Shown one piece after another: positions 1,582 to 5,538 of a stretch of 8,984 nt of DNA (positions are counted from its first letter, which is position 1; each line of letters begins with the position of its first letter). A program made the position numbers and the translations under genes. The notes below the pieces were generated by a model. It was not told the DNA's origin, ran no database searches, and worked only from the letters and a program-made list of their open reading frames with translations. The DNA is from a virus (Duplodnaviria; Heunggongvirae; Uroviricota; Caudoviricetes), in IMG/VR virus record IMGVR_UViG_2600254977_000009; one strand, given 5' to 3'.

Positions 1582-2046
1582 TTATCTGAGGCATTGCTCT
1601 CGAATGTATAGCTGTGCCCCTTCAAGTTGTTTTTGCATTATTATCAGTCGCGCTCTGAGGGTGAAATAATCCCGTTCAGCGGTGTCTGCCAGTCGGGGGG
1701 AGGCTGCATTATCCACGCCGGAGGCGGTGGTGGCTTCACGCACTGACTGACAGACTGCTTTGATGTGCAACCGACGACGACCAGCGGCAACATCATCACG
1801 CAGAGCATCATTTTCAGCTTTCGCATCAGCTAACTCCTTCGTGTATTTTGCATCGAGCGCAGCAACATCACGCTGACGCATCTGCATGTCAGTAATTGCC
1901 GCGTTCGCCAGCTTCAGTTCTCTGACATTTTTGTCGCGCTGGGCTTTGTAGGTAATGGCGTTATCACGGTAATGATTCAGCCCCAGACTAAGCGCACCAC
2001 AGGCCACCAGCAGGGCAATGATGACCACGCACAGTACGCGGTTCAT
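1582..2046 (-). CDS. Rz: Spanin inner-membrane subunit Rz (i-spanin)
   Basis: 154-aa ORF with an N-terminal TM segment and coiled-coil periplasmic region. Long stretches ([17 protein letters not shown]...[86 protein letters not shown]) are essentially identical to lambda Rz as I remember it. Confidence 0.95.
1644..1826 (-). CDS. Rz1: Spanin outer-membrane lipoprotein Rz1 (o-spanin), embedded in Rz in the +1 frame
   Basis: 60-aa ORF entirely inside Rz. Lipobox LVVVGC followed by a proline-rich region ([59 protein letters not shown]) matches lambda Rz1. Confidence 0.9.
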
Positions 2047-2047
2047 T

Positions 2048-2185
2048 TCACCACCAGCGTATCTGACCGATGAAATAACCAGAGGCCATAATCACAAACA
2101 CCAGCCAGATAAGAATGAACTTCCAGGTGGATAATTTTTCAGCCATCACTCGAATCTCCCGAATCAGTTTGCTAAAATCAAACAC
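2048..2185 (-). CDS. Candidate small membrane peptide (45 aa from GTG at 2185, or 32 aa from ATG at 2146), translationally coupled to Rz
   Basis: Not in the ORF track because it is under 60 aa. Minus-strand reading: AAGGAG, 5 nt, GTG TTT GAT TTT AGC AAA CTG ATT CGG GAG ATT CGA GTG ATG GCT GAA AAA ... TGG TGG TGA, giving (M)[44 protein letters not shown]. It has a hydrophobic TM-like core and an aromatic C-terminus. Its TGA stop (2050..2048) abuts the Rz ATG (2046..2044) as TGAAATG. The internal ATG at 2146 has GGGAG 9 nt upstream. Confidence 0.4.
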
Positions 2186-2225
2186 ACTTTCTCCTTTGAC
2201 TTTTCCGGAGTCAGGAAACACAAAA

Positions 2226-2255
2226 CCCCGCTTGGTGCCAACAAACGGGGTTTTT
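2226..2255. terminator. Bidirectional intrinsic terminator between endolysin and the small ORF/Rz
   Basis: Plus strand caaaa-CCCCG-cttggtgccaacaaa-CGGGG-ttttt. A 5-bp GC stem (with an inner ttgg/ccaa pairing) is flanked by a T-run on the plus strand and an A-run upstream, so the minus strand reads hairpin + TTTTG. Confidence 0.5.
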
Positions 2256-2344
2256 ACTTTTATTCACTTACGTTTCGCCACTTCGCAGGATTTCATGTTA
2301 TCCGCCCGCGTGGCCATGCCTTATTTTTCAGCAAAATATTCTGC

Positions 2345-2909
2345 TTATCTGTCGATACCCCAGCACGCCAGCGCGCTCTCCTGGTCACGACGGGATACCT
2401 GACCGTAGCAGTTGTTTGAACGAATACGGCAGTCTCTGCCACCGTCCTTAATCCACCAGCGAATCGCCTCACACGCTCCCCTGCGATCACCTGCATTAAT
2501 TCGTTTATAAAACGTCGACGGGAAACACTTACCGGGACCAATGTTGTACGGACAGAATGACGCGATCCCCGCTTTCTGGGGTTCGCTCAATGGCACTTTG
2601 ATGTTTTTCTCCACCCATGCCAGCGCCTTATCACGCTCAATGGCGTTGACCTGGTCGCATTTTTCCTTCGACAGTTTCATACCGGGAAAAACGGGTTTTC
2701 CATCCACCATCGTGGCCCCCCGACAGATGGTCCAGTTGCCGGAACCATCGCGGTATGCCGTAGTGTGGTTACCCTCTTTTTCATCCAGAAACTGGTCAAG
2801 TATCNNNNNNNNNNNNNNNNNNNTGGTCAAGTATCTGAGGAGCTGATGCGCCTGCTCCAATCAGCGCCAGAACTGCAGCTGACAGGCCGTATTTGATTTT
2901 TGCGTTCAT
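2345..2909 (-). CDS. R: SAR endolysin (phage lysozyme, T4-lysozyme/GH24-like fold), reading frame interrupted by a 19-N assembly gap
   Basis: Minus-strand ATG at 2909..2907 gives MNAKIKYGLSAAVLALIGAGASAPQILDQ..., a Gly/Ala-rich weakly hydrophobic signal-anchor-release (SAR) N-terminus. After the N-run the ORF-track frame continues ILDQFLDEKEGNHTTAYRDGSGNWTICRGAT...CWGIDR, with an E...D...T spacing that looks like the catalytic triad of phage lysozymes. The two halves are in different frames only because of the artificial N-run. Confidence 0.85.
2805..2823. other. Assembly gap (19 N) flanked by a duplicated 12-13 nt sequence
   Basis: ctggtcaagtatc immediately precedes the N-run and tggtcaagtatc immediately follows it. 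This is the signature of overlapping contig ends joined by a scaffolding gap rather than missing biology. Confidence 0.9.
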
Positions 2910-3014: not shown

Positions 3015-3287
3015 ATGGACAATAGCACCATTTCTCTACAGGAGTTGCTCGACTGCATTTCCAGGCTTCGGGATGATGTAAATGCCCTCACTGTTGCATT
3101 TTCACATCTGGCCTTATCAATTCCCAGGGAGCAAATGCTGCCAACGCTGGCATCCATTCATTTTGAATCACGCAACCCCAAATGGTCCCAGGAACAACAA
3201 AATTCTTTCAAGTGGCTGGCGGCATTGCTGGAAGAAAATTATGCTGGCAAAACTACCATTTCGGCGGAGTCTTCAGGGAACCAGTAA
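3015..3287 (+). CDS. Hypothetical 90-aa protein on the opposite strand inside the lysis cassette
   Basis: ORF-track protein MDNSTISLQELLDCISRLRDDVNALTVAFSHLALSIPREQML... The ATG at 3015 is preceded by AAGAGGA at a 7-nt spacing (caatcaagaggattatttATG). Its 3' end overlaps the 3' end of the convergent YdfR-like ORF by 35 nt, so one of the two may be wrong or degraded. I do not recognise the protein. Confidence 0.4.
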   Translation: MDNSTISLQELLDCISRLRDDVNALTVAFSHLALSIPREQMLPTLASIHFESRNPKWSQEQQNSFKWLAALLEENYAGKTTISAESSGNQ

Positions 3288-3597
3288 TCCTTCCCGGTAG
3301 CTTTCCTTTGTAGGTTATCCATACATTCTGCGCCTCTAAAATTACGGGGCGCTTTTCCGGCGACTGCTCATCCCCTTCACATAACCCGGCAGCGACATCC
3401 AGGAAGACCTGTCTGATGCTCCTTCTGGCCGCTGCCTCATAAAACTCCAGCGCAGCACCTTCAACACGGTCCAGCGAGATGTCCAGGTCAAAAATTTCAC
3501 CGTCAAAGCGTTCTTTGTCCTGTAATGCTAAAGTTACCGTAACTTTATTCTCAAAATTGCGGATCCCTTTCACAATCAGTTCATAGTTTTGAGTCAT
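3253..3597 (-). CDS. ydfR: YdfR-like (DUF1327) protein between holin and endolysin
   Basis: The N-terminal ~70 aa (MTQNYELIVKGIRNFENKVTVTLALQDKERFDGEIFDLDISLDRVEGAALEFYEAAARRSIRQVFLDVA) resemble the Qin prophage protein YdfR as I recall it. Position between the holin and lysozyme is the same as ydfR between essQ and rrrQ. The C-terminal ~40 aa look unrelated and overlap the plus-strand ORF, so this may be frameshifted or truncated. Confidence 0.65.
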   Translation of the reverse strand: MTQNYELIVKGIRNFENKVTVTLALQDKERFDGEIFDLDISLDRVEGAALEFYEAAARRSIRQVFLDVAAGLCEGDEQSPEKRPVILEAQNVWITYKGKLPGRITGSLKTPPKW

Positions 3598-3601
3598 TGA
3601 A

Positions 3602-3817
3602 TTACTCTCCCCGTGCCGCCTTACGACGGTCCTCTCTGATTTTGAAATACAGGTTAGTCAGATATGTCAGCAGCCCAAACAGCAGACTCCCCAGCACGCC
3701 TATTGCCGCCCACTGAGACGGGGAAACCCTGTCCAGCAACTGCAGGAACCAGTAGCCCGTTCCCACCGCTGACGTGGTGTATGACACACCTGTTGTGATT
3801 TTTTCCATCTGGTCCAT
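3602..3817 (-). CDS. S: Class II holin, phage-21 S-type pinholin (71 aa) with a dual-start motif
   Basis: From ATG at 3817: [71 protein letters not shown]. It has two TM segments and a charged C-tail, and is near-identical to S21/EssD-type pinholins as I remember them. Met1 and Met4 (MDQM) fit the holin/antiholin dual-start pattern. GGGAGACGGGG lies upstream of the ATG. The longer ORF-track start at 3922 has no such support. Confidence 0.85.
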
Positions 3818-3850: not shown

Positions 3851-3881
3851 ATAAAAAAGCCACCAGTTAACTACTGATGGC
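3851..3881 (-). terminator. Candidate intrinsic terminator about 35 nt upstream of the holin start
   Basis: Minus strand reads GCCATCAG-tagttaa-CTGGTGGC followed by TTTTTTATTGTTTTC (plus strand ataaaaaagccaccagttaactactgatggc). The stem is 8 bp with one mismatch. Confidence 0.5.
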
Positions 3882-4085
3882 TCTGATAACTCATGCAAGC
3901 GTCTCAGACGACCCACTGACACTACCGGTGAGTTTAACGATACCTTCCATTTGACTGGCTCACTTTTTATGATGATGCCGGTGCATTTATCTCCAGCGCC
4001 AGACTTTCTATCTCAACGCCATACGTTACATTTTTGGTAATATCCATCAGCGTCAGTGCATTTAGTCCCACTGCCAGACTGTCTT

Positions 4086-4535: not shown

Positions 4536-4544
4536 GCCCACAAG

Positions 4545-4776
4545 AAAACCCCTCCGGAGAGGGGCTAAAGCCGCGTATCTGTATCATCATGCACATGGTG
4601 CCGGGTGCCTCCCGGTGAGTTCAGCCCGGTGCCACTAAACCCGCGTCATTCTCGTTTTGATAATCAGAGATTATACCGTCACCAGTCGCCCCTCCGCTCA
4701 GGGGGATTCACCATGCGAAATTTTTTTAACAAATGCCCAGTCTGACAGGCAACTGTCAACTTACTGAATTGTGAGC
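4545..4776 (-). repeat. Copy A of a ~220-230 bp block-conserved element; on the minus strand it ends in an intrinsic terminator
   Basis: Shares identical or near-identical blocks with copy B: cccctccggagaggggct, catggtgccgggtgcctcccggtga, gcccctccgc(t/a)cagggggattcaccatgc, ttttaacaaa, gtcaac, ctgaattgtgag. The blocks are separated by divergent spacers of unequal length. Minus-strand 3' end: CCCCTC-tccg-GAGGGG then TTTTCTTG (plus 4541..4564). Confidence 0.7.
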
Positions 4777-4810: not shown

Positions 4811-4839
4811 GTAAAAAGGCCCACCGGAGCGGATGGGCC
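4811..4839 (-). terminator. Candidate intrinsic terminator between the two repeat copies
   Basis: Minus strand GGCCCA-tccgctccgg-TGGGCC followed by TTTTTACTG (plus strand gtaaaaaggcccaccggagcggatgggcc). Confidence 0.45.
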
Positions 4840-5030
4840 TGGAAGGATAGCGGTCATGTGATGCCGGTTTCCCGGTAACTCAGCACCGGTATCTGAGTCA
4901 ACGTTTTCTCTACTGGGTCATTTCCGATACGCCCTGCCTGCTGACAGGCTTTCATCACATCTGAAAATATAGCACCCTGACTGATACTGTAGTACCTAAG
5001 GTTCCAGAAACTGTGATGTATCCGGCACAG

Positions 5031-5245
5031 AAAAGCCCCTCCGGAGAGGGGCTGGAGAGTGGCGCTATGTGCCATTGCATGGTGCCGGGTGCCTCCCGGT
5101 GAATTCAGTACCAGCACCTGAATCCGCGATTATCCCATATACCTACTCGCTGATTGCCCCTCCGCACAGGGGGATTCACCATGCCAGTTTCTTTTAACAA
5201 ACTCCCCGCAAACCAGACAACAGTCAACCGCCTGAATTGTGAGAC
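5031..5245 (-). repeat. Copy B of the block-conserved element; on the minus strand it ends in an intrinsic terminator
   Basis: Same conserved blocks as copy A in the same order. Minus-strand 3' end: GCCCCTC-tccg-GAGGGGC then TTTTCTGTG (plus 5027..5052). Short ORFs that can be drawn through the two copies differ in frame and length, which argues against coding. Confidence 0.7.
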
Positions 5246-5288: not shown

Positions 5289-5365
5289 TGGCGCGTTGTA
5301 CTGGATTCGAACCAGTGACCGATTGCTTAGAAGGCAATTGCTCTGTCCGGCTGAGCTAACAACGC
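5289..5365 (-). tRNA. argO: tRNA-Arg (anticodon UCU), canonical cloverleaf
   Basis: Reverse complement GCGTTGT-TA-GCTC-AGCCGGACA-GAGC-A-ATTGC-CTTCTAA-GCAAT-CGGTC-ACTGG-TTCGAAT-CCAGT-ACAACGC-G-CCA. All four stems pair perfectly and the anticodon loop is CU-UCU-AA. Gene name is by analogy to the ileZ-argN-argO cluster of lambdoid/Stx prophages. Confidence 0.9.
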
Positions 5366-5378
5366 AGGATACAGATAA

Positions 5379-5455
5379 TGGACCGCCTTCGGGGACCCGA
5401 ACTCCGCGCAACCAGCTTCGAAGGCTGGCGCTCTTTCCTGATGAGCTAATGGCGG
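5379..5455 (-). tRNA. argN: tRNA-Arg (anticodon read as UCG), with non-canonical features
   Basis: Reverse complement CCGCCAT-TA-GCTC-ATCAGGAAA-GAGC-G-CCAGC-CTTCGAA-GCTGG-TTGCG-CGGAG-TTCGGGT-CCCCG-AAGGCGG-T-CCA. D and anticodon stems are perfect. The acceptor stem has one A:A mismatch, the T-stem one A:C mismatch, and the T-loop is TTCGGGT rather than TTCRANY. Position between the two good tRNAs supports a real or slightly degenerate tRNA. Confidence 0.6.
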
Positions 5456-5462
5456 TATGTGA

Positions 5463-5538
5463 TGGTGGCCCTTGCTGGATTTGAACCAGCGACCTGGCGA
5501 TTATGAGTCGCTCGCTCTCACCACTGAGCTAAAGGGCC
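5463..5538 (-). tRNA. ileZ: tRNA-Ile2 (anticodon CAU, lysidine type); a tRNA-Met is not excluded from sequence alone
   Basis: Reverse complement GGCCCTT-TA-GCTC-AGTGGTGA-GAGC-G-AGCGA-CTCATAA-TCGCC-AGGTC-GCTGG-TTCAAAT-CCAGC-AAGGGCC-A-CCA. Very similar to E. coli ileX/ileY (tRNA-Ile2) as I recall it. It is the first gene of the prophage ileZ-argN-argO arrangement. Confidence 0.85.

What the first reader, a model, noticed from the sequence alone, without database searches (positions are those of the whole stretch)
2048..2255. Small membrane-peptide ORF coupled to Rz, preceded by a bidirectional terminator, inside the lysis cassette
About 300 bp separate the endolysin stop from the Rz start, whereas in lambda these genes are adjacent. 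The gap holds a bidirectional intrinsic terminator (2226..2255) and a 32-45 codon ORF with an SD, a hydrophobic TM-like core and a WW C-terminus. Its stop abuts the Rz start as TGAAATG. A small membrane protein at this position could modulate lysis timing or spanin function, or could be a toxin-like peptide. It is too short to appear in the ORF track.
Basis: seen in the sequence. Interest (0 to 1): 0.55.

Follow-up and report, generated by a model that had tools for sequence, protein, structure and literature searches.

The report
Mobile small membrane-peptide gene cassette
The gap between the endolysin and Rz genes holds a real, strongly conserved 45-codon gene for a small membrane peptide, always preceded by a two-way terminator hairpin; the same unit sits in many unrelated temperate phages, often far from lysis genes, and nobody has assigned it a function.

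Summary
On the minus strand a 298-nt gap separates the endolysin stop (2345) from the Rz start (2046). It holds a bidirectional terminator hairpin (2222-2254), an SD, a GTG-started 45-codon ORF (2185-2048) with an internal ATG giving 32 codons, one TM helix and a C-terminal RWW. The stop lies 1 nt before the Rz ATG.

The ORF is a real gene. dN/dS is 0.05-0.3 at saturated dS, and only this frame stays open. It matches phrog_6632 (unknown function); databases call it hypothetical.

It is not spanin-specific. Hairpin, leader and ORF travel as one roughly 220-240-bp moron-like cassette across Enterobacterales and Pseudomonas phages. It sits between five endolysin types and two Rz families, but also between baseplate genes and in other tail and non-lysis contexts.

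Synonymous sites are frozen in codons 3-6 and 9-12 (pS 0.00 and 0.14, against about 0.8 elsewhere). This fits an antisense extended -10 promoter (TGcTAAAAT), whose roughly 75-nt RNA would cover the RBS and end at the hairpin, and an internal SD for Met14.

Best reading: a late-expressed, tightly restrained, membrane-active peptide with type-I-toxin-like antisense control. Its function and the antisense RNA are inferred, not shown.

The parts
2345..2909 (-). SAR-type lysozyme R (endolysin); upstream neighbour. Interrupted by an N-run at 2806-2823.
   Evidence: ORF list. Annotated as rrrQ/lysozyme in identical UTI89 and ATCC 11775 DNA.
2256..2344 (-). R-proximal part of the spacer. Not part of the cassette: shared with prophages that carry a different insert at this junction.
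   Evidence: Sakai Sp15 has the same first ~90 nt after R, then diverges exactly where the hairpin begins. Alignment A1.
2218..2266 (.). Bidirectional intrinsic-terminator hairpin (stem 2222-2230 with 2246-2254) with flanking A/T tracts. This is the 5' boundary of the cassette.
   Evidence: Terminator scan. Fold energies -18.9 and -15.6 kcal/mol. Kept with compensatory changes in all relatives. The A-tract, which is the T-tract of the other strand, is conserved in every context.
2186..2221 (-). Leader of about 36 nt with SD AAAGGAG (2197-2191). The SD can pair with an upstream CUCC/UGACU segment, forming an SD-sequestering hairpin.
   Evidence: Folds. The hairpin is kept with four different stem sequences in relatives. 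Covariation counts for helix 1.
2048..2185 (-). 45-codon gene, GTG start: [45 protein letters not shown]. An amphipathic N-helix, one TM helix and RWW at the C-terminus.
   Evidence: phrog_6632, E 1.4e-29. WP_000459345.1 annotated in some genomes. dN/dS 0.05-0.3. AF2 helices 4-17 and 20-44. Hydropathy.
2144..2160 (-). Internal SD-like GGGAG (2160-2156) 9 nt upstream of the invariant ATG14 (2146-2144). A possible second start giving a 32-aa product.
   Evidence: E10 GAG 34/34, R12 CGA 35/35 and M14 35/35 are invariant. pS for codons 9-12 is 0.14. The Serratia version starts at Met14.
2150..2178 (+). Putative antisense promoter: weak -35 TCGAAT (2150-2155), 17-nt spacer, extended -10 TGcTAAAAT (2170-2178). 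It lies opposite codons 3-12.
   Evidence: TGCTAAnAT is present at this position in all 31 unique orthologues (32 rows printed), including Pseudomonas phages. pS for codons 3-6 is 0.00. Not listed by the two-hexamer scan because the -35 is weak. Inferred, not shown.
2185..2260 (+). Putative cis-antisense RNA of ~75 nt: single-stranded 5' end, an anti-SD hairpin, then the terminator hairpin and U-tail.
   Evidence: The 2185-2264 stretch has MFE -23.2 kcal/mol, z = -3.8. Covariance model R1 scores 81 bits at 2180-2264(+). No Rfam family matches. Transcription is not shown.
1582..2046 (-). Rz (i-spanin). Its ATG lies 1 nt after the small ORF's stop, and the WW-stop codons UGGUGGUGA double as an SD-like sequence. 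Rz1 is embedded at 1644-1826.
   Evidence: PF03245, E 1.4e-52. ORF list, with an Rz1 lipobox VVGC.

Best explanation
The spacer contains a self-contained, horizontally mobile cassette of roughly 220-240 bp, a moron. Its parts, in order, are a bidirectional intrinsic terminator, a leader of about 36 nt whose SD can be sequestered in a small hairpin, and a GUG-initiated 45-codon gene. The gene encodes a tail-anchored inner-membrane peptide: a cytoplasmic amphipathic helix, one TM helix, and RWW at the periplasmic face.

Shown:
- The gene is real and under purifying selection.
- Hairpin, leader and ORF move as one unit between unrelated late-gene junctions.
- No sense-strand promoter is detectable between the hairpin and the ORF.
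- Codons 3-6 and 9-12 are frozen at synonymous sites.

Inferred:
- The peptide is made only when late transcription reads through the terminator. In this prophage that transcription would be Q-antiterminated.
- Expression is otherwise kept very low by four restraints: the terminator, the weak start codon, the occluded SD, and a cis-antisense RNA of about 75 nt. That RNA would start from an extended -10 promoter opposite codons 3-6, cover the SD and start codon, and end at the same hairpin.
- A second product of 32 aa may start at Met14.
- So many restraints on a small hydrophobic peptide suggest a dose-sensitive, membrane-active factor that acts late in infection, resembling a type I toxin or a holin. 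Here it could add to membrane depolarisation and lysis, and its translation would also deliver ribosomes to Rz.

My confidence by step is about 0.9 that it is a real, mobile, conserved gene cassette. It is about 0.5 that the antisense RNA exists, and about 0.35 that the peptide is a membrane-damaging or lysis-promoting factor.
For: Gene reality:
- Pairwise dN/dS is 0.05-0.3 with dS saturated, and this is the only frame open in all relatives.
- It makes a full-length match to phrog_6632.
- Homologues of 45 aa occur in Escherichia, Salmonella, Citrobacter, Enterobacter, Klebsiella, Edwardsiella, Yersinia, Sodalis, Brenneria, Izhakiella and Pseudomonas aeruginosa.

Mobility:
- K-12 Qin has R overlapping Rz with no spacer.
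- Sakai Sp15, Sp9, Sp10 and Sp12 carry a different insert at the same junction.
- The alignment shows similarity starting at the hairpin and ending at the Rz ATG.
- Among 96 distinct flank combinations, about 63 are endolysin|Rz, about 19 are baseplate spike|wedge and 5 are Pseudomonas tail regions. The endolysin|Rz cases span 5 endolysin types and 2 Rz families.
- Cassette GC is 2-10 points below its flanks.

Hairpin:
- It is conserved with compensatory changes. 91.6% of cells are paired, against at most 58% when slid, and 10 of 18 pairs change on both sides, against 3.5 in shuffles.
- T-tracts are kept on both strands in every context.

No sense promoter: none is found on the minus strand between R and the ORF.

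Antisense promoter:
- TGCTAAnAT lies opposite codons 3-6 in all 31 unique orthologues, including GC-rich Pseudomonas phages.
- D3 GAT, S5 AGC and R12 CGA are each 35/35, while codons 22-43 use 2-5 synonyms each.
- pS is 0.00 for codons 3-6, 0.14 for codons 9-12 and 0.77-0.86 for codons 22-45.
- Paralogous small ORFs behind the same type of leader also have an antisense -10-like hexamer there, although the amino acids differ.

The RNA folds like an sRNA (z = -3.8).

Late-operon setting: a Q antiterminator (PF03589) lies at 7210-7737(-).

Peptide shape: helices 4-17 and 20-44, pLDDT 83.6, with an N-flank net charge of +2.

Precedent: the hokW-sokW type I system of prophage Sp5 aids lysis and phage release (PMC8621323).
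Against: - There is no direct evidence of transcription from the plus strand, of translation, or of toxicity.
- The -35 of the proposed antisense promoter is weak (3 of 6), and the consensus scan did not call the promoter.
- AT-rich codons just after a start codon can also be selected for translation initiation, which could explain part of the synonymous constraint.
- The strand on which the small leader hairpin is selected could not be decided. Summed energies are -224 (antisense) and -236 (sense), and the Pseudomonas and enteric variants point in opposite ways.
- Classical type I toxin genes have their own promoter, and none is seen here.
- There is no similarity to Hok, Ldr, TisB, Fst or any holin family.
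- In myovirus baseplate operons an efficient sense-direction terminator should be polar on essential genes, so sense termination may be weak or incidental.
- Occurrence in tail and baseplate clusters gives no contextual support for a lysis role.
- The pair counts come from an alignment fitted to the model, and it includes 5 reverse-strand hits.
Confidence: 0.5

Rival explanations
1. A dedicated lysis-cassette accessory. A small inner-membrane protein partners with the i-spanin Rz, or tunes the pinholin/SAR-endolysin system as an antiholin or releasin would, and is co-translated with Rz.
For: About two thirds of distinct contexts are endolysin|Rz junctions. In those contexts the stop is always 1 nt from the Rz ATG. 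The alternative insert at this junction in O157 prophages also ends with an unrelated 48-aa TM ORF just before Rz. The possible dual start resembles holin/antiholin pairs.
Against: The same cassette sits between baseplate spike and wedge genes in viable phages such as SEN34 and pPE4. It also lies in Pseudomonas tail regions, after tail-fibre and Baseplate_J/DUF2612 genes, and after LPD38 proteins. It accompanies two unrelated Rz families and five endolysin types, so no specific partner is conserved. There is no homology to holins or releasins.
Confidence: 0.2
2. A lysogen-benefit moron. The peptide would be made from the prophage and protect the host, for example by superinfection exclusion or abortive infection at the inner membrane.
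For: The distribution is patchy and moron-like, and GC is lower than in the flanks. Small prophage membrane proteins with such roles are known, for example HK97 gp15 and P22 SieA (own knowledge). If the antisense promoter is real, the cassette has at least one lysogen-active promoter.
Against: No sense-strand promoter is found, and a terminator lies directly upstream. The GUG start and occluded SD argue for very low expression in the lysogen. There is no PADLOC match.
Confidence: 0.12
3. The RNA is the main product. A prophage-expressed antisense or trans-acting sRNA has the hairpin as its terminator, and the peptide is secondary.
For: The antisense -10, the fixed spacing and the antisense T-tract are conserved. 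The RNA folds like an sRNA with a U-tail. Prophages of E. coli encode many Hfq-bound sRNAs (PMC4104026).
Against: The peptide is itself under strong purifying selection along its whole length, including the TM part that lies outside the RNA. The Serratia and Dryocola versions keep the peptide core but lack the hairpin and leader. No Rfam family matches.
Confidence: 0.1
4. A passive spacer. An ordinary terminator follows R, and a fortuitous or merely 'coupling' leader ORF is needed only to bring ribosomes to Rz.
For: The arrangement is TGAAATG, and the WW-stop codons form an SD-like GGUGGUGA for Rz.
Against: The amino-acid sequence is conserved at saturated synonymous divergence across orders of bacteria. 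The unit occurs where no coupling exists. Qin shows that Rz needs no such spacer.
Confidence: 0.03

Closest known systems
phrog_6632 / RefSeq WP_000459345.1 ('hypothetical protein', 'phage protein')
   Same: This is the same protein family. The HMM match is full length (E 1.4e-29), and the identical protein is annotated in ATCC 11775.
   Different: The family has no function, description or literature. PGAP annotates it in some genomes and omits it from identical DNA in others. The hairpin and leader association and the synonymous constraint were not described in anything I found.
Type I toxin-antitoxin modules (hok/sok; symE/symR; ibs/sib; hokW-sokW of prophage Sp5)
   Same: Both involve a small hydrophobic peptide under 60 aa. 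The predicted cis-antisense RNA of about 75 nt would cover the SD and start codon. As I recall it, SymR likewise starts a few nucleotides inside symE. HokW assists prophage-mediated lysis (PMC8621323).
   Different: There is no toxin promoter of its own, and the gene is embedded in a late operon. The TM helix is C-terminal rather than N-terminal. There is no sequence similarity to any toxin family. Neither the antisense RNA nor toxicity has been demonstrated.
Phage morons (Juhala et al. 2000; definition quoted in PMC2629481)
   Same: It is an extra gene present or absent between genes that are adjacent in relatives. Its GC is lower than its flanks, it carries an intrinsic terminator, and it lies in late operons.
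   Different: Canonical morons run promoter, gene, terminator and are expressed from the prophage. Here the terminator comes first, and the only promoter-like element points backwards.
P22 sar RNA / ant and lambda oop RNA (own knowledge; sar is cited in PMC2629481)
   Same: These are short phage antisense RNAs (about 69 and 77 nt) that start inside or next to a gene and pair with its RBS or 3' end to hold expression down.
   Different: Their targets and sequences differ, and their existence here is only predicted.
Holin/antiholin dual-start genes (lambda S105/S107, S21 68/71) and P2 LysA
   Same: These are small membrane proteins in lysis cassettes. Two in-frame starts give products that differ in N-terminal charge. 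P2 lysA lies between the endolysin gene and the Rz-equivalent gene (own knowledge).
   Different: Here the two starts are 13 codons apart. There is a single C-terminal TM helix with almost no periplasmic domain. There is no homology, and many copies are not in lysis cassettes.

Membership tests
phrog_6632 (45-aa phage protein, unknown function) | Significant full-length match to the family HMM | tested here: met
   E 1.4e-29; residues 13-57 of the 57-aa ORF match profile positions 1-45 of 45.
Intrinsic (Rho-independent) terminator, bidirectional | A GC-rich stem-loop followed by a T-run, on each strand | tested here: met
   The scan lists it on the minus strand. Energies are -18.9 and -15.6 kcal/mol, with TTTTGTGTTT on the minus strand and TTTTTACTTTTATT on the plus strand. 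It is conserved with covariation.
Intrinsic (Rho-independent) terminator, bidirectional | It actually terminates transcription in vivo or in vitro | not testable with these tools
   This needs in vitro transcription or 3'-end mapping.
Type I toxin-antitoxin system | A small (<60 aa) hydrophobic membrane peptide | tested here: met
   45 aa; Kyte-Doolittle 19-mer mean 2.13 at residues 24-42; AF2 TM helix at 20-44.
Type I toxin-antitoxin system | An antisense RNA that base-pairs with the toxin mRNA | tested here: inconclusive
   There is a conserved antisense extended -10, a conserved antisense terminator and fixed spacing. No transcript data were available, and the promoter scan did not call it.
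Type I toxin-antitoxin system | The toxin gene has its own promoter | tested here: not met
   No promoter-like site lies on the minus strand between 2344 and 2186. Nothing upstream of the hairpin is conserved across contexts.
Type I toxin-antitoxin system | The peptide is toxic when over-expressed and is neutralised by the RNA | not testable with these tools
   This requires an expression experiment.
Type I toxin-antitoxin system | Homology to a described toxin family (Hok/Gef, Ldr, TisB, Fst and others) | tested here: not met
   No Pfam or NCBIfam hit at E <= 1 apart from a chance TM match.
Holin / antiholin | Membership of a holin family by sequence | tested here: not met
   No holin Pfam or PHROG hit. 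The cassette's own holin is the S21-type gene at 3602-3817.
Holin / antiholin | Constant location in a lysis cassette | tested here: not met
   About one third of distinct contexts are baseplate, tail or other junctions.
Holin / antiholin | A dual-start motif producing two isoforms | tested here: inconclusive
   GTG1 and the invariant ATG14 each have an SD. GGAG or GAGG is kept 8-9 nt before ATG14. Translation was not measured.
Spanin-associated factor | Obligate linkage to an Rz/Rz1 gene pair | tested here: not met
   It is found next to two unrelated Rz families, and in many loci with no Rz nearby.
Moron | Presence/absence polymorphism between genes that are adjacent in related phages | tested here: met
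   Qin has rrrQ overlapping rzpQ. Sakai prophages carry another insert. The mosaic boundaries lie at the hairpin and at the Rz ATG.
Moron | Its own promoter upstream and terminator downstream, giving independent expression from the prophage | tested here: not met
   The terminator is upstream, there is no sense promoter, and nothing separates the ORF from Rz.

The most novel reading that the evidence does not exclude
The cassette would found an undescribed class of type-I-toxin-like modules that live inside phage late operons. The prophage would constitutively make a ~75-nt antisense RNA that silences the membrane peptide. That RNA could also act in trans on the homologous leader of related superinfecting phages, blocking the peptide and the essential late gene translationally coupled to it (Rz here, baseplate genes elsewhere). 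During lytic growth, read-through transcription would overwhelm the RNA, and two isoforms (45 and 32 aa) would form a toxin/antitoxin-like or holin/antiholin-like pair that helps set lysis time. Tandem arrays of 'hairpin + small RWW-ended TM ORF' units in some phages would make this a diversified superfamily.
Probability: 0.12. Interest if true: 0.8.

Novelty: new variant of a known kind. Interest (0 to 1): 0.55.

Why it matters
About 16% of complete E. coli genomes (871 of 5426) carry nearly the whole spacer, and 37% carry part of it. Carriers include Stx1 and Stx2 phages such as H-19B and uropathogenic strains such as UTI89. Relatives reach Salmonella, Yersinia, Klebsiella and Pseudomonas aeruginosa prophages.

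Annotation pipelines call the gene inconsistently, and no function is known. A strongly conserved, tightly restrained membrane peptide that is expressed with late genes could affect lysis timing, and with it phage and Shiga-toxin release.

If the antisense RNA is real, this would be a type-I-toxin-like module of unusual design (terminator first, no toxin promoter) hidden in late operons. It would also be a clear case of synonymous sites in a phage gene being frozen by an overlapping regulatory element. Every prediction can be tested with simple genetics in plaque-forming carriers such as SPN3UB and SEN34.

Tried and rejected
1. The promoter-like site the scan found on the plus strand at 2063..2092 (CTGACC-18-CATAAT) was considered as the antisense promoter. 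I rejected it because it lies in variable TM codons and is absent from relatives.

2. Longer ORF versions (57 aa from GTG 2221; 65-72 aa in some databases) were rejected. In-frame stops lie just upstream of the GTG in most relatives.

3. Rfam at E <= 1 gave nothing in 2048-2266.

4. Pfam, NCBIfam and PADLOC gave no family for the peptide.

5. Three literature searches found nothing on this ORF.

6. I looked for experimental support for the antisense RNA in the Hfq-CRAC sRNA table of O157 Sakai (PMC4104026). EcOnc10, EcOnc11 and EcOnc12 looked promising, being antisense and about 5 kb from the PR' site. They map just downstream of Rz in Sp12, Sp10 and Sp9, and those prophages carry the other insert (ant plus a 48-aa ORF), so they say nothing about this cassette. 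I did not read the second half of that table.

7. Deciding the strand of the small leader hairpin from G-U versus A-C asymmetry gave no clear answer.

8. A sense promoter overlapping or preceding the hairpin was looked for by eye across 31 leaders. No conserved TAnnnT hexamer was present.

9. One DNA search pattern had the wrong spacing and found nothing; it is uninformative.

10. I did not run a fold search on the AF2 model, because a two-helix peptide would give meaningless matches.
Full report
**Orientation and check of the observation.**
The lysis cassette runs on the minus strand. In order it contains:
- an S21-type holin (3817-3602, PF04971);
- a YdfR/DUF1327 gene (3597-3253);
- a lysozyme with an N-terminal SAR-like segment (2909-2345, interrupted by an N-run);
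- the gap in question;
- Rz (2046-1582, PF03245, E 1.4e-52) with Rz1 embedded (1826-1644).

A Q antiterminator (PF03589) lies upstream at 7737-7210.

The gap is 298 nt.
- A hairpin, AAAACCCCG...CGGGGTTTT, at 2222-2254 with T-runs on both strands. Fold energies are -18.9 kcal/mol on the minus strand and -15.6 on the plus strand.
- An SD, AAAGGAG (2197-2191), 5 nt before GTG 2185.
- An in-frame ATG at 2146.
- A stop, TGA, at 2050-2048, followed by one base and the Rz ATG.

The window is 100% identical to a prophage of UTI89, ATCC 11775 and many ST95-type strains. About 95% identical DNA occurs in Stx phages, including H-19B. PGAP annotates the 45-aa product (WP_000459345.1, hypothetical protein) in some of these genomes and omits it from identical DNA in others.

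**It is a real gene.**
The 45-aa form matches phrog_6632 (unknown function) over its full length, E 1.4e-29. It matches no Pfam, NCBIfam or PADLOC family.

Homologues of 45 aa occur in:
- E. coli, E. albertii and E. fergusonii;
- Salmonella, Citrobacter, Enterobacter and Klebsiella;
- Edwardsiella, Yersinia, Izhakiella and Sodalis;
- Brenneria, Symbiopectobacterium and Providencia.

At about 49% identity they also occur in Pseudomonas aeruginosa phages. Every database name is 'hypothetical' or 'phage protein'.

Nei-Gojobori dN/dS between divergent members is 0.05-0.3 with synonymous sites saturated. For example, the window against E. fergusonii shows 16 synonymous and 9 non-synonymous differences. 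Of the six frames, only this one is open in all members.

The start is GTG (TTG in a few) in all full-length (45-codon) members. In most relatives an in-frame stop lies a few codons upstream. The conserved product is therefore the 45-aa form, not the 57-72-aa versions found in some records.

The peptide has three parts:
- an amphipathic helix at residues 4-17;
- a break at 18-19, usually Pro-Asn;
- a hydrophobic helix at 20-44 that ends in an invariant RWW (AF2 mean pLDDT 83.6).

The N-flank has a net charge of +2. This predicts an N-in, tail-anchored topology.

**It is one mobile unit, not a spanin accessory.**
In an alignment of the window with Salmonella and E. fergusonii loci, similarity to the most divergent locus (E. 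fergusonii) begins at the A-tract before the hairpin. It ends exactly at the ATG of the downstream gene.

K-12 Qin has rrrQ overlapping rzpQ with no spacer. Sakai prophages Sp15, Sp9, Sp10 and Sp12 share the first ~90 nt after R. From the hairpin position onward they carry a different insert: an antirepressor gene plus an unrelated 48-aa TM ORF.

The cassette is found between five endolysin types and two Rz families:
- P21-type holin with lysozyme;
- HP1-type holin with lysozyme;
- holin_8 with GH19;
- holin_3_1 with GH108;
- holin_3_1 with an unassigned 138-aa protein;
- Rz families PF03245 and PF10721.

It also lies in places unrelated to lysis:
- between the baseplate spike and the next baseplate gene, in Salmonella phage SEN34, pPE4, Yersinia, Serratia and Dryocola;
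- after Baseplate_J/DUF2612;
- after a tail-fibre gene;
- after LPD38 proteins;
- in the minor-tail region of Pseudomonas phage YMC11/02/R656.

Among 96 distinct flank combinations in the fetched loci, about 63 are endolysin|Rz, about 19 are spike|wedge and 5 are Pseudomonas tail regions. The sample is dominated by E. coli.

The 1-nt abutment to the next gene is seen only in the Rz contexts. Elsewhere the downstream gene is 7-30 nt away, with its own SD where one is visible.

Cassette GC is 2-10 points below that of its flanks. This is the behaviour of a moron.

**The hairpin belongs to the gene.**
In 31 unique leaders the arrangement is constant: an A-rich tract, a GC stem, a variable loop, the second stem arm, a T-rich tract, about 36 nt, SD, then start.

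The stem base covaries: AU in 13-16 rows, GC in 11-15 and CG in 3 (the two figures are from the two alignments, A4 and A6).

A second, small hairpin overlaps the SD in the leader. It is kept with four different stem sequences: CUCC/GGAG, CCUUG/CAAGG, CCCCAUG/CAUGAGG and CGUUA/UAACG.

On an alignment fitted to a covariance model, 91.6% of cells pair, against at most 58% when partners are slid. Ten of 18 pairs change on both sides, against 3.5 in shuffles. Two caveats apply: the alignment was fitted to the model, and five rows are reverse-strand hits.

The covariance model also found extra copies of the leader in four loci. Each is followed by another small tail-anchored TM ORF of 50-59 aa, and three of the four end in (I/V)(R/K)WW. 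Some phages therefore carry tandem 'hairpin + small ORF' units.

**There is extra constraint on the 5' third of the ORF.**
Codon choice is invariant at D3 GAT (35/35), S5 AGC (35/35), E10 GAG (34/34), R12 CGA (35/35) and M14 (35/35). Position 4 is always NTT. This holds even in GC-rich Pseudomonas phages. By contrast, codons 22-43 each use 2-5 synonymous codons.

Among ten divergent representatives, pS varies sharply along the ORF:

| Codons | Mean pS |
|---|---|
| 3-6 | 0.00 |
| 9-12 | 0.14 |
| 22-45 | 0.77-0.86 |

In 44 of 45 pairs the 5' part is the slower one.

Two elements fit these islands of constraint.

First, on the opposite strand codons 3-6 read TTGCTAAAATC. That is an extended -10, TGcTAAAAT, at 2170-2178(+), and it is present in all 31 unique orthologues. 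A weak -35, TCGAAT, lies 17 nt upstream.
- Transcription from it would start opposite the start codon.
- It would run through the anti-SD and stop at the hairpin, giving an RNA of about 75 nt.
- That RNA folds as a 5' tail, a stem-loop and a terminator (MFE -23.2 kcal/mol, z = -3.8).

This reading explains why the antisense T-tract and the hairpin-to-start distance are conserved in every context. It also explains why S5 is always AGC: the C is the G of the TG motif, which AT-richness alone does not account for. Paralogous ORFs with different amino acids at these positions still show an antisense TAnnnT there, two of five with TGn.

Second, GGAG or GAGG is kept 8-9 nt before the invariant ATG14. 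It lies in the spacer of the proposed promoter, so the promoter does not explain it. The Serratia version of the gene starts exactly at Met14 and lacks the hairpin. A 32-aa second product is therefore plausible.

**What could not be shown.**
- No transcript, translation or phenotype data were available.
- The two-hexamer promoter scan did not list the antisense promoter.
- The strand on which the small hairpin is selected is undecided.
- Rfam has no matching family.
- The O157 Hfq-CRAC table offered no test, because the Sakai prophages I checked lack this cassette.

**Mechanism proposed.**
No sense promoter is detectable between R and the ORF, and nothing upstream of the hairpin is conserved. 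I therefore infer that the peptide is made only from late transcripts that read through the terminator. In lambdoid carriers these are Q-antiterminated.

A terminator, a GUG start, an occluded SD and probably a cis-antisense RNA are stacked on a 45-aa hydrophobic peptide. That much restraint suggests a product tolerated only at low dose or only late: a membrane-active peptide in the manner of type I toxins or holins. A type I toxin in a Stx prophage has been shown to assist lysis and phage release (hokW-sokW, PMC8621323).

In this locus, translation of the ORF would also deliver ribosomes to Rz. The WW-stop codons UGGUGGUGA resemble an SD.

Two rival readings remain possible, each weakened by specific evidence. 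A lysis-specific accessory is weakened by the non-lysis contexts. A lysogen-expressed defence moron is weakened by the missing sense promoter. A purely passive spacer is excluded by the selection on the protein.

**Novelty and verdict.**
The gene is already catalogued as a hypothetical protein family. I found no description of it as a terminator-first mobile cassette, of its spread from enterobacterial to Pseudomonas phages, or of the frozen synonymous sites with their antisense-promoter and dual-start reading.

I class it as a new variant of a known kind: a moron, or type-I-toxin-like small membrane peptide. Interest is moderate (0.55). The structure and conservation are solid. The function and the antisense RNA are hypotheses with clear, inexpensive tests.

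Noticed in passing
window 2806-2823: An 18-base N-run lies inside the endolysin gene. It is flanked on both sides by the same 12-mer, tggtcaagtatc, which looks like a masked or assembly-gap artefact. ATCC 11775 annotates this gene as frameshifted, whereas UTI89 has it intact.
   Followed up: no
window 4536-4745, 5023-5213 (and weakly 4811-4984), minus strand; tRNAs at 5292-5365, 5382-5455, 5466-5538, minus strand: There are two strong copies and one weak copy of the Rfam sRNA STnc100 (161, 136 and 30 bits), plus three tRNA genes. They lie between the DNA methylase / Q region and the holin, at the moron insertion site downstream of PR'.
   Followed up: no
window 3015-3287 (+) and 3253-3597 (-): A 90-aa ORF on the opposite strand (phrog_2411, E 5.5e-55; PGAP WP_001351274.1) converges on the YdfR/DUF1327 gene, which sits between holin and endolysin, and overlaps its 3' end by 35 nt. 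Both are of unknown function.
   Followed up: partly
L107 3749-4464 (O157 Sakai Sp15); same in L189, L190, L191 (Sp10, Sp9, Sp12): An alternative insert occupies the same R|Rz junction: an antirepressor gene followed, with overlapping stop and start, by an unrelated 48-aa single-TM ORF (ECs_5741: MGWLMISDKLITLVKSLCVLVGISFLVMLVAIFFSTAWRVLTLSGLVG). That ORF ends 9 nt before Rz. A small TM ORF immediately before Rz therefore recurs with a different sequence.
   Followed up: partly
L010 3676-3907; L026 2523-2746; L127 2093-2354; L144 2191-2418: These are tandem units of the same type of hairpin and leader, each followed by another small tail-anchored TM ORF of 50-59 aa. Two of them share a GG(K/Q)MSEKGAD motif with an internal Met, and three end in (I/V)(R/K)WW. 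This suggests a wider superfamily of such cassettes.
   Followed up: partly
window 7210-7737 (-) and 7718-8029 (-): Two adjacent, overlapping ORFs both hit the Q antiterminator family PF03589 (E 1e-27 and 8e-16). This could be a split or duplicated Q gene.
   Followed up: no
L189 ~2520-2570 (Sakai 1946819-1946867, minus); equivalents in Sp9 and Sp12: The Hfq-bound sites EcOnc10, EcOnc11 and EcOnc12 of Tree et al. 2014 have near-identical read counts. They map just downstream of Rz on the strand opposite the late operon, at the 3' side of a small hypothetical gene (ECs_1967 and equivalents).
   Followed up: partly
window 3856-3884 (-): A second terminator-like hairpin (12 pairs, then TTTATTGTTT) lies just upstream of the holin start, inside the long version of the holin ORF.
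   Followed up: no
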